Shown here: in pieces, positions 2,890 through 3,024 of the stretch
How the letters are laid out: every line of letters starts with the position of its first letter
Numbering within the stretch: the first letter of the stretch is position 1
Source: Escherichia coli
GTDB lineage: Bacteria > Pseudomonadota > Gammaproteobacteria > Enterobacterales > Enterobacteriaceae
Assembly: GCF_003334385.1 (NCBI RefSeq)
Contig: NZ_QOWN01000061.1
DNA: 19,408 nt
Reading direction: 5' to 3' (one strand)
The notes under the pieces: model-generated
What the model saw: the letters and a program-made list of their open reading frames with translations, nothing else
Database searches by the model: none
Told to the model about the DNA's origin: nothing
Program-made: the position numbers and the translations under genes

Positions 2890-3024
2890 ATGAGCGTCGC
2901 ATCTGGCACTATTGGCGGATGCGGCGTAAACGCCTTATCCGCCCTACGCGTTAAAGAGCCGGTTTGTAGGCCTGATAAGACGCACTAGCGTCGCATCAGG
3001 CATTGTGCTCCATTGGCGGACGCG
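2890..3024. repeat. REP/BIME cluster (repetitive extragenic palindromes) between the convergent mntH and ypeC genes
   Basis: Several imperfect palindromic units of the GCCGGATGCGGCG...TAGGCCTGATAAGACGC type, including near-identical direct copies GCGTCGCATCTGGCA (2893-) and GCGTCGCATCAGGCA (2988-). They fill the whole 3'-3' intergenic gap. Confidence 0.7.

What the first reader, a model, noticed from the sequence alone, without database searches (positions are those of the whole stretch)
2890..3024. REP/BIME array fills the entire convergent gap between mntH and ypeC
About 135 bp of nested imperfect palindromes, with near-identical direct copies of GCGTCGCATC(T/A)GGCA at both ends and oppositely oriented REP units between. 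Such elements act as mRNA 3' stabilisers and DNA gyrase or IHF binding sites, and here they may insulate the two convergent transcripts. They also explain the absence of a classical hairpin plus T-run terminator for either gene.
Basis: partly seen in the sequence, partly recalled or inferred. Interest (0 to 1): 0.25.

Follow-up and report, generated by a model that had tools for sequence, protein, structure and literature searches.

The report
REP/BIME repeat between mntH and ypeC
The 140-base gap between the converging E. coli genes mntH and ypeC is filled by an ordinary, already catalogued kind of repeated palindromic DNA (a Y + Z2 REP pair, BIME-2 type), which in the Escherichia lineage took the place of the two-way hairpin terminator that related genera still have there.

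Summary
Window 2886-3025 is identical to E. coli K-12 MG1655. It consists of:
- a 3' half of a Z2 REP (2893-2908);
- a complete Y REP in inverted orientation (2913-2947);
- an 18-nt tail-to-tail linker;
- a complete Z2 REP (2966-3002);
- the first 11 nt of another Y unit (3014-3024), abutting the ypeC stop.

The two full units match the Y and Z2 copies flanking rayT at 32/35 and 35/37 positions. Each has the GTAG tag and the two-base stem bubble. Every E. coli chromosome holds at least 40 similar places. IS1397, which targets palindromic units, sits in the loop of this Z2 unit in 51 genomes.

It is BIME-2-like, not BIME-1. There is no long linker and no IHF consensus, so the IHF suggestion does not apply.

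Of 61 other enterobacterial genomes with the same gene pair, 53 have a short A-run/hairpin/T-run terminator here. All five Escherichia species have REPs instead. Published data place a Rho-dependent termination region 44 nt past the array on the mntH strand.

The most likely role is hairpins that protect 3' ends while Rho terminates downstream. This is a known kind of element and of low interest.

The parts
2893..2908 (+). Truncated Z2 REP: only its 3' half (AGCGTCGCATCTGGCA), beginning 7 nt after the mntH stop codon.
   Evidence: It matches the 3' half of the full Z2 unit (2987-3002) at 15 of 16 positions (D2). It can pair with the left arm of the Y unit (I4; minimum-energy fold). It is the most diverged part of the array among strains.
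2909..2912 (.). Head-to-head linker 1 (CTAT, 4 nt).
   Evidence: Read directly from the sequence.
2913..2947 (-). Complete Y-type REP, 35 nt. On the minus strand it reads GTAGGGCGGATAAGGCGTTTACGCCGCATCCGCCA; on the plus strand it appears as an iREP ending in CTAC.
   Evidence: 32 of 35 positions match a Y copy flanking rayT in K-12, at the same length, and the unit fits the Y consensus in Table 1 of Nunvar 2010. It has the GTAG tag and the AA/GC two-base bubble. One stem pair is swapped C-G to G-C relative to the consensus, which preserves pairing. All 11 stem pairs form standard pairs in the 11 Escherichia sequences.
2948..2965 (.). Tail-to-tail linker (GCGTTAAAGAGCCGGTTT, 18 nt). It has no IHF site and may hold a relic of the A-run and left arm of the ancestral terminator.
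   Evidence: No IHF consensus with up to 1 mismatch lies in the region. AAAGAGCCG matches terminators of other genera, but 18 of 500 shuffles score as well, and the linkers of the other Escherichia species are not significant. The relic reading is therefore only marginal.
2966..3002 (+). Complete Z2-type REP, 37 nt (GTAGGCCTGATAAGACGCACTAGCGTCGCATCAGGCA).
   Evidence: 35 of 37 positions match the Z2 copies flanking rayT, at the same length (name those copies Z2). One compensatory C-G to U-A change occurs in Escherichia sp. E1V33. IS1397 is inserted in its loop (CACTA|G) in strain MLI121 and in 50 further genomes.
3003..3013 (.). Head-to-head linker 2 (TTGTGCTCCAT, 11 nt).
   Evidence: 9 of 11 positions match the head-to-head linker TTGTGCACCAA of the BIME 3' of rayT. 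This is my own hand comparison with the sequence printed.
3014..3024 (-). Truncated Y REP: only the first 11 nt of the iREP (TGGCGGACGCG), ending 1 nt before the ypeC stop codon.
   Evidence: Direct repeat D1. It carries the same locus-specific GGCGGA variant as the full Y unit, which points to duplication in place.
3050..3250 (+). C-rich, G-poor untranslated stretch, antisense to ypeC, that the mntH transcript enters after the array. It is a candidate Rho loading and termination zone. The published Rho termination peak maps to window 3069.
   Evidence: The C/G ratio is 1.4-1.7 here against 0.93 for the whole window. Adams 2021 supplementary file 2 lists K-12 2511284 on the minus strand with Rho score 3.84 and p = 1e-10.
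2786..2885 (-). C-rich, G-poor stretch, antisense to the mntH 3' end, that the ypeC transcript enters after the array. It is a candidate Rho loading zone for the opposite direction.
   Evidence: The C/G ratio is 2.7 over 100 nt on the minus strand. No experimental record was found for this direction.

Best explanation
This is a BIME-2-type cluster of repetitive extragenic palindromes. It has one complete Y unit and one complete Z2 unit in opposite orientation, tail to tail, flanked by a half Z2 unit and a Y fragment. That amounts to about 1.4 tandem copies of a Y/Z2 mosaic element.

Shown:
- the class of each unit;
- the GTAG tag and stem bubble that RayT (TnpA-REP) needs;
- high genomic copy number;
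- use of the Z2 unit as a target by IS1397;
- presence at this locus across Escherichia species with a variable number of units;
- absence of the intrinsic bidirectional terminator that occupies the same gap in most other Enterobacteriaceae.

Inferred:
- The element entered the gap in an Escherichia ancestor through RayT-type single-strand transposition and was amplified in place, replacing the terminator.
- Both convergent transcripts now read into or through the array and are stopped by Rho in the C-rich antisense RNA beyond it. This is documented for the mntH strand only.
- 3'-to-5' exonucleases then trim the RNA back to the stable REP hairpins, which serve as the protective 3' ends of the two mRNAs.
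- At the DNA level a BIME-2 is also a likely gyrase site. That would suit a position between converging transcription units.
For: Identity:
- The sequence is identical to K-12.
- Repeats and palindromes are present.
- The Y unit matches rayT-flanking copies at 32/35 and the Z2 unit at 35/37. Those copies are named Y and Z2.
- Every chromosome holds at least 40 similar places.
- IS1397 sits in the Z2 loop in 51 genomes. Its specificity for palindromic units is given by the title cited.
- Sub-threshold Rfam hits to the REP325-derived naRNA4 model score 50.9 and 48.7 bits.

Hairpins:
- Fold z-scores are -3.3 and -4.3.
- 100% of stem cells pair across 11 Escherichia sequences, against 27-48% when partners are slid. 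There is one compensatory change.

Replacement of a terminator:
- 41 two-sided and 12 one-sided intrinsic-terminator-like hairpins occur in 61 non-Escherichia gaps. None occurs in the 5 Escherichia gaps.
- None is found in the window.

Rho:
- A Rho termination region lies at window 3069 on the mntH strand.
- Both strands are C-rich downstream of the array.

General model:
- Dar and Sorek 2018 describe Rho termination downstream of REPs followed by exonuclease trimming to the hairpin.
- Harris et al. 2026 describe REP325 as a partly Rho-dependent terminator plus stabiliser. They also report higher expression of convergent pairs that have a REP between them.
Against: - No 3' end was mapped inside the gap in the curated Term-seq lists of Adams 2021. 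The claim that the stable mRNA ends sit at the REP hairpins of this locus is therefore untested. Low expression or multi-mapping of repeat reads could hide such ends.
- The Rho position is the best-scoring point within an 800-nt neighbourhood, so its resolution is coarse.
- Nothing is recorded for the ypeC direction.
- Genome-wide, REP-containing termini do not show longer mRNA half-lives (abstract; figure legend).
- Covariation is too sparse for statistical weight: 52 of 500 shuffles reach the observed score.
- Mobilisation by RayT has been shown in vitro for other BIMEs, not for this one.
Confidence: 0.8

Rival explanations
1. The array is itself a bidirectional terminator. The REP hairpins, or head-on collisions of RNA polymerases stalled at them, end both transcripts inside the gap, without a T-run and without Rho.
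For: Harris et al. report that 78 REPs lie within 306 previously predicted bidirectional terminators between convergent genes. BIMEs have been linked to transcription attenuation (Espeli, Moulin and Boccard 2001, cited). The array sits exactly where other genera have a bidirectional terminator.
Against: No T-run follows any hairpin. A Rho-dependent termination region lies 44 nt beyond the array on the mntH strand. In untreated cells about half of the upstream signal persists downstream of it (84 against 43 reads), and that rises on bicyclomycin.
Confidence: 0.2
2. The array is selfish or neutral DNA. It is a RayT-mobilised repeat that landed in a tolerant site, destroyed or displaced the old terminator, and persists without being selected for any host function. 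Rho simply cleans up afterwards.
For: - The number of units varies among Escherichia species: 80, 100, 117, 140 and 143 nt.
- Both end units are truncated and decaying.
- Individual lineages carry internal deletions: a 19-nt deletion in E1V33 Y, a 3-nt deletion in T-HYM1 Z2 and a 1-nt deletion in O157 Y.
- The gap is more polymorphic than the flanking genes (compare).
- An IS1397 insertion is tolerated in 51 genomes.
- Other genera carry their own lineage-specific REPs in the same gap.
Against: The two complete hairpins keep 100% pairing in all sequences that have them. All five independent single-sided stem changes are C-to-T changes giving G-U on the mntH-sense strand, and none gives A-C. 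The array is retained at 80% or more coverage in 5270 of 5426 genomes. This view is not exclusive of the best explanation, since a selfish origin and a later host use can both be true.
Confidence: 0.35
3. The array acts at the DNA level as a gyrase site. As a BIME-2 it recruits DNA gyrase, which removes the positive supercoils that build up between the converging mntH and ypeC transcription units.
For: The Y + Z2 composition with short linkers is the BIME-2 architecture. Gyrase cleavage of BIME-2 in vivo is established in the literature (Espeli and Boccard 1997, title cited). The convergent position is where positive supercoiling accumulates; this last point rests on general knowledge and is an inference.
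Against: Nothing in these tools tests gyrase binding. The array has only about 1.4 BIME copies, and both genes are weakly expressed (base means 414 and 85), so topological stress here should be small.
Confidence: 0.3
4. The array down-regulates mntH translation. A REP-derived hairpin starting 8 nt after the mntH stop codon stalls the terminating ribosome, which leads to mRNA cleavage and rescue by tmRNA.
For: The minimum-energy fold of the mntH-sense RNA has a hairpin spanning 2894-2927, made of the half Z2 unit and the left arm of Y, only 8 nt from the stop. [quoted passage not shown] 2015, as summarised).
Against: This hairpin competes with the canonical Y hairpin, which starts 28 nt from the stop. 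The centroid fold prefers the Y hairpin. The half Z2 unit is the least conserved part and shows unpaired cells in some strains. The paper's gene list could not be consulted.
Confidence: 0.12
5. The array is a BIME-1 / RIP-type element that binds IHF, or a naRNA4-like nucleoid-organising RNA gene.
For: Rfam naRNA4 (RF02564) gives hits of 50.9, 48.7 and 29.9 bits.
Against: The Z unit is the 37-nt Z2 type and the linker is 18 nt. No IHF consensus with up to 1 mismatch is present, and IHF sites belong to the long L linker of BIME-1. All naRNA4 hits are below the gathering score of 59.5. Recent work finds that REP325/naRNA4 does not compact the nucleoid.
Confidence: 0.03

Closest known systems
BIME-2 (tandem Y/Z2 REP mosaic elements of E. 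coli), for example the BIMEs flanking rayT (yafM) in the K-12 REPtron
   Same: - It has the same two unit types at the same lengths (35 and 37 nt), 91% and 95% identical to the rayT-flanking copies.
- The units alternate in orientation.
- The tail-to-tail linker is short (18 nt against 17 nt).
- Head-to-head linker 2 matches a rayT linker at 9 of 11 positions.
- The GTAG tag and the two-base bubble are present.
   Different: - Only about 1.4 copies are present, with both end units truncated by the neighbouring genes.
- The tail-to-tail linker sequence is unrelated to the rayT one apart from AAAC.
- Head-to-head linker 1 is only 4 nt.
- The Y stem carries a locus-specific C-G to G-C swap that all Escherichia orthologues share.
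REP325 (yjdM-yjdN), the best-studied REP cluster
   Same: It is a cluster of Y and Z units in a 3' UTR. REP325 has been described as a partly Rho-dependent terminator and an mRNA stabiliser. The naRNA4 model derived from it gives the best Rfam hits here.
   Different: REP325 lies between tandem genes of one operon and has more units. This array lies between convergent genes, scores below the Rfam threshold, and has no direct experimental data.
BIME-1 / RIP elements (Y + Z1 with the long L linker and an IHF site)
   Same: Both contain a Y unit and an inverted partner REP arranged tail to tail.
   Different: Here the partner is Z2, not Z1. The linker is 18 nt with no IHF consensus.
Bidirectional intrinsic terminators between convergent genes
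   Same: The array occupies the same position, and presumably has the same task, as the A-run/GGAGCC-loop-GGCTCC/T-run terminator found between mntH and ypeC in Enterobacter, Klebsiella, Citrobacter, Raoultella, Kosakonia and others.
   Different: No A-run or T-run flanks the hairpins. Termination on the mntH strand depends on Rho and lies beyond the array.
REPINs (inverted REP doublets mobilised by RAYTs, described in Pseudomonas)
   Same: The array is an inverted doublet of REPs with a short spacer, associated with a RAYT-family transposase in the genome (abstracts).
   Different: The two arms here are different REP classes (Y and Z2) rather than two copies of a single class. The E. coli nomenclature for this arrangement is BIME.

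Membership tests
REP / palindromic unit (E. coli Y, Z1, Z2) | Imperfect palindrome 30-40 nt long that can fold into a stem-loop | tested here: met
   The units are 35 nt (2913-2947) and 37 nt (2966-3002). Inverted repeats I2 and I3 were found, and both hairpins appear in the folds.
REP / palindromic unit (E. coli Y, Z1, Z2) | Conserved GTAG tetranucleotide 5' of the foot of the palindrome | tested here: met
   GTAG lies at 2966-2969 on the + strand. CTAC lies at 2944-2947, which is GTAG on the - strand. The feature is defined.
REP / palindromic unit (E. coli Y, Z1, Z2) | Two-base mismatch (bubble) in the stem, required for TnpA-REP binding | tested here: met
   The Y unit has 2921-2922 (GC) opposite 2935-2936 (TT). 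The Z2 unit has 2977-2978 (AA) opposite 2993-2994 (GC). Both were read, and the requirement is stated.
REP / palindromic unit (E. coli Y, Z1, Z2) | Sequence match to a class consensus | tested here: met
   The Y unit matches rayT-flanking copies at 32/35 and the Z2 unit at 35/37. Both agree with the consensus strings in Table 1 of Nunvar 2010.
REP / palindromic unit (E. coli Y, Z1, Z2) | Highly repeated in the genome and extragenic | tested here: met
The array lies wholly between the two stop codons.
REP / palindromic unit (E. coli Y, Z1, Z2) | Serves as an insertion target for the PU-specific IS1397 | tested here: met
   IS1397 is inserted in the Z2 loop, between GACGCACTA and the duplicated (A)CTAGCG, in MLI121. 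The same junction occurs in 51 genomes.
REP / palindromic unit (E. coli Y, Z1, Z2) | Binding and cleavage by RayT / TnpA-REP on single-stranded DNA | not testable with these tools
   This needs a biochemical assay such as that of Ton-Hoang 2012.
BIME-2 | Y and Z2 units in alternating orientation, often as tandem copies | tested here: met
   The order is half Z2, Y (inverted), Z2, Y fragment. The repeat period is 94-101 nt.
BIME-2 | Short linkers with no long L motif | tested here: met
   The linkers are 4, 18 and 11 nt.
BIME-2 | Linker sequences belong to the named S, s, l and r motifs | tested here: inconclusive
Head-to-head linker 2 matches a rayT linker at 9 of 11 positions, while the tail-to-tail linker shares only AAAC (my comparison). 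The array could be classed as 'atypical'.
BIME-2 | DNA gyrase binding and cleavage | not testable with these tools
   This is known for the class only (title cited).
BIME-1 / RIP (IHF-binding) | Z1 partner unit and a long conserved L linker carrying an IHF site | tested here: not met
   The partner unit is the 37-nt Z2 type. The linker is 18 nt. WATCAANNNNTTR with up to 1 mismatch has no match within 2886-3025.
Intrinsic (Rho-independent) terminator | GC-rich hairpin immediately followed by a T-run | tested here: not met
   The scan found 0 sites on either strand in 2600-3400. My own scan of Escherichia orthologues also found none.
Rfam RF02564 naRNA4 | Score at or above the family gathering threshold (59.5 bits) | tested here: not met
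   The best hits score 50.9 and 48.7 bits.

The most novel reading that the evidence does not exclude
A mobile REP/BIME entered a textbook bidirectional intrinsic terminator site in the ancestor of Escherichia and erased the terminator. Both converging genes were thereby switched from intrinsic to Rho-dependent termination with REP-protected 3' ends. This would be a clean, datable natural example of a switch in terminator type driven by a selfish repeat. The hairpins have since been kept by selection on the mntH-sense RNA, as suggested by 5 of 5 single-sided stem changes being G-U-preserving on that strand. Independent colonisation of the same gap by lineage-specific REPs in Pluralibacter, Silvania, Kluyvera and Pseudescherichia would make convergent-gene terminators a preferred landing site.
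Probability: 0.4. Interest if true: 0.35.

Novelty: already known. Interest (0 to 1): 0.15.

Why it matters
The element itself is a standard, long-known component of the E. coli K-12 genome, so identifying it adds nothing new.

What gives the locus some value is the comparative picture. The same convergent gene pair carries a canonical two-way intrinsic terminator in most Enterobacteriaceae and a REP array in every Escherichia species examined. Published data also show Rho-dependent termination just beyond the array.

That makes mntH-ypeC a tidy natural test case. It bears on the current debate about whether REPs act as terminators, as mRNA stabilisers, or as tolerated parasites. It also bears on the idea that terminators can switch between intrinsic and Rho-dependent modes during evolution.

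Tried and rejected
1. **The GTAG overlapping the mntH stop (2882-2885) as the tag of the truncated Z2 unit.** Rejected. The last codons TTG TAG or TTG TAA are conserved in genera that have no REP here, so this is ancestral coding sequence.

2. **The tail-to-tail linker and head-to-head linker 2 as the two arms of the ancestral terminator split by insertion of Z2.**
   - The left-arm match AAAGAGCCG is only marginal: 18 of 500 shuffles score as well. It is not significant in the other Escherichia species.
   - The putative right arm GCTCC sits in a linker that matches a rayT BIME linker at 9 of 11 positions. It is therefore better explained as part of the BIME.
   - I keep this only as a weak possibility.

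3. **IHF site.** None was found.

4. **REP annotation in the NC_000913.3 record.** The copy available here lists no repeat features for this stretch. I could not confirm the official REP number. From memory, U00096 annotates a REP element here; this is unverified.

5. **Mapped 3' ends in the gap.**
   - The curated Term-seq lists of Adams 2021 contain none.
   - The supplements of Dar and Sorek 2018 are not held.
   - Ju et al. 2019 and Liang et al. 2015 are not held.
   - The supplements of Harris 2026 mention the two genes only in expression tables.

6. **Covariation statistics.** These are underpowered. There is one compensatory pair, and 52 of 500 shuffles reach the observed score.

Full report
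**What is there**

The window is E. coli. mntH occupies 1647-2885 on the + strand and ypeC occupies 3026-3352 on the - strand. The 140-nt gap between them (2886-3025) is base-for-base identical to K-12 MG1655 2511328-2511467.

Read on the + strand, the gap contains:
- 7 unassigned bases;
- AGCGTCGCATCTGGCA (2893-2908);
- CTAT;
- TGGCGGATGCGGCGTAAACGCCTTATCCGCCCTAC (2913-2947);
- an 18-nt linker, GCGTTAAAGAGCCGGTTT;
- GTAGGCCTGATAAGACGCACTAGCGTCGCATCAGGCA (2966-3002);
- TTGTGCTCCAT;
- TGGCGGACGCG (3014-3024);
- one base, then the ypeC stop.

So are the nested palindromes.

The region folds much better than shuffled sequence on both strands, with z-scores of -3.3 and -4.3. No hairpin followed by a T-run exists on either strand.

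**What kind of repeat**

Ton-Hoang et al. 2012 define E. coli REPs as 30-40-nt imperfect palindromes. They have a GTAG tag at the foot and a two-base stem mismatch, and fall into three classes: y, z1 and z2. BIME-1 is z1 + y with a long L linker that often carries an IHF site. BIME-2 is z2 + y with short linkers in tandem copies.

Nunvar et al. 2010 give the sequences of the two REPs flanking rayT/yafM and identify them as Y and Z2. I extracted those copies from K-12.
- The minus-strand reading of 2913-2947 matches a rayT Y copy at 32 of 35 positions, at equal length.
- 2966-3002 matches the rayT Z2 copies at 35 of 37 positions, at equal length.
- Both have the GTAG tag and the bubble.

The Y unit differs from the consensus by a C-G to G-C swap of one stem pair. 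All Escherichia orthologues share this swap, and so does the Y fragment at 3014-3024. That points to duplication in place.

The flanking 16-mer is the 3' half of a Z2 unit. The array is therefore about 1.4 tandem copies of a Y/Z2 mosaic, which is BIME-2-like.

There is no IHF consensus, even with one mismatch allowed.

Rfam's only relevant model is naRNA4, derived from REP325. It hits three times but below its threshold: 50.9, 48.7 and 29.9 bits against 59.5.

**Family behaviour**

The locus array is present at 80% or more coverage in 5270 of 5426 complete genomes. It is more diverged than the flanking genes.

In strain MLI121 the gap is interrupted by IS1397, inserted exactly in the loop of the Z2 unit. 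The same junction is found in 51 genomes. IS1397 is known for inserting specifically into palindromic units of BIMEs (title cited). This gives independent, biological confirmation of membership.

**Comparative picture**

A scan of one genome per species returned 80 enterobacterial mntH loci. The mntH/ypeC convergent pair is adjacent in 66 of them.

Among the 61 non-Escherichia cases, by my own rule-based scan:
- 41 have a short gap (typically 29-60 nt) that is a textbook two-way intrinsic terminator, for example AAAAAGGAGCCGGGAGGCTCCTTTTT;
- 12 more have the hairpin with a run on one side only;
- 6 carry lineage-specific REP-like palindromes. These are Pluralibacter, three loci from the Pseudescherichia vulneris group (P. 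vulneris, Escherichia sp. ESNIH1 and Enterobacteriaceae UBA7338) and two Kluyvera. Silvania confinis, counted among the 41, also carries a REP-like palindrome alongside a retained terminator;
- the two Salmonella subspecies have an imperfect hairpin without clean runs.

All five Escherichia species lack the terminator and have a REP array of 80-143 nt. These are E. coli, E. albertii, E. whittamii and two unnamed species. The arrays range from half Z2 + Y only (E. albertii) to the full E. coli arrangement.

By parsimony the terminator is ancestral, and it was replaced by REPs in the Escherichia stem. Whether the 18-nt linker keeps a relic of the terminator's A-run and left arm is only marginally supported. 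AAAGAGCCG matches, but 18 of 500 shuffles score as well, and the other species are not significant.

**How it most likely works**

Adams et al. 2021 list a Rho termination region with its best position at K-12 2511284 on the minus strand. Its Rho score is 3.84 and p = 1e-10, and it is annotated as antisense to ypeC. This position is window 3069 on the mntH-sense strand, 44 nt beyond the array.

After the array, both transcripts enter untranslated, C-rich, G-poor antisense RNA. The C/G ratio is 1.4-1.7 for the mntH transcript and 2.1-3.7 for the ypeC transcript, against 0.93 for the whole window.

This fits the published model in which Rho terminates downstream of REPs, and PNPase and RNase II then trim back to the hairpin. 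It also fits the recent description of REP325 as a partly Rho-dependent terminator and a stabiliser, and the finding that convergent pairs with a REP between them are expressed more highly.

What is shown:
- the identity of the element;
- loss of the intrinsic terminator;
- Rho dependence on one strand.

What is inferred:
- that the stable 3' ends sit at these hairpins. No curated Term-seq end lies in the gap;
- that Rho acts in the ypeC direction;
- any gyrase role.

Across 11 Escherichia sequences both full hairpins keep 100% standard pairs, with one compensatory C-G to U-A change. This compares with 27-48% for slid controls. The shuffle control is not significant, at 52 of 500.

By my reading of the alignment, all five independent one-sided stem changes are C-to-T on the + strand. 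They give G-U in the mntH-sense RNA and would give A-C in the opposite strand. This is a hint, not proof, of RNA-level constraint on one strand.

**Rivals**

- A direct, Rho-independent two-way terminator is disfavoured by the missing T-runs and by the bicyclomycin-sensitive read-through.
- A purely selfish or neutral element is compatible with the variation in unit number, the decaying end units, the lineage-specific deletions and the tolerated IS insertion. It does not exclude later host use.
- A gyrase site is plausible for a BIME-2 between converging genes but cannot be tested here.
- Translational damping of mntH is possible because an alternative hairpin (2894-2927) starts 8 nt after the stop, within the 15-nt rule summarised. 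However, that hairpin competes with the canonical Y hairpin and involves the least conserved segment.
- The IHF/BIME-1 and naRNA4 readings fail their defining tests.

**Verdict**

The type is BIME-2, so IHF is not expected. Termination is probably carried out by Rho beyond the array rather than by the palindromes themselves.

The element is an already known kind and, being identical to K-12, an already catalogued instance. Interest is low. The one feature worth keeping is the clean terminator-to-REP replacement across genera.

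Noticed in passing
L010-L082 (for example L023 4240-4268, L015 4240-4271, L063 4237-4278), compared with window 2886-3025: Outside Escherichia, the mntH-ypeC gap is usually a 29-60-nt bidirectional intrinsic terminator with a conserved GGAGCC/GGCTCC or GAGCC/GGCTC stem. All five Escherichia species have a REP array there instead.
   Followed up: yes
L038 4240-4317, L053 4240-4350, L060/L073/L078 4240-4302, L069 4234-4308, L072 2774-2848: The same convergent gap holds lineage-specific GTAG-tagged palindromes in Pluralibacter, Silvania confinis (terminator retained beside it), the Pseudescherichia vulneris group and Kluyvera (a large REPIN-like palindrome). This suggests repeated independent colonisation of the site.
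   Followed up: partly
L088 2660-4092 (E. coli MLI121), corresponding to window 2987: A 1.43-kb IS1397 is inserted in the loop of the Z2 REP with a short target duplication (ACTA or CTA). The same junction occurs in 51 of 5426 complete E. coli genomes.
   Followed up: yes
Alignment A2, columns 49-79 and 108-139: All five independent one-sided substitutions in the Y and Z2 stems are C-to-T on the mntH-sense strand (G-C to G-U). None produces A-C on that strand. Lineage-specific deletions are also present: 19 nt in the Y unit of Escherichia sp. E1V33, which leaves the perfect palindrome GGCGGATCCGCC; 3 nt in the Z2 unit of T-HYM1; and 1 nt in the Y unit of O157:H7.
   Followed up: partly
window 3069 (+), which is K-12 2511284 (-): A published Rho-dependent termination region (Adams et al. 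2021, supplementary file 2) lies antisense inside the 3' end of ypeC, 44 nt past the array.
   Followed up: partly
window about 1565 (+), which is K-12 2512788 (-), upstream of mntH: Adams et al. 2021 (supplementary file 3) list a strong Term-seq 3' end 82 nt upstream of the mntH start, in the 5' leader. K-12 annotates the small ORF ypeD (2512687-2512776) next to it. This suggests premature termination or attenuation in the mntH leader.
   Followed up: no
L017, L026, L030 (Trabulsiella) and L040 (Yokenella), between mntH and ypeC: These genomes have an extra insert of about 0.7-0.85 kb in the gap. It contains an ORF whose reading frame looks like that of a LuxR/GerE-type regulator; this was not checked. 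A terminator is retained next to ypeC.
   Followed up: no
L008, L019, L034, L041 (Citrobacter); L009, L068, L070, L077; L043, L056: In several Citrobacter, Atlantibacter and Buttiauxella genomes ypeC is not adjacent to mntH, and a different gene follows a one-way terminator. The convergent pair is therefore not universal.
   Followed up: no
window 3020-3032 compared with 2946-2955: The sequence around the ypeC stop (ACGCGTTTAATGG) resembles the start of the tail-to-tail linker (ACGCGTTAAA). The deletions that shorten the array in E. albertii and Escherichia sp. MOD1-EC7003 end at this TTTAATGG motif, which suggests deletion or duplication between short direct repeats.
   Followed up: partly
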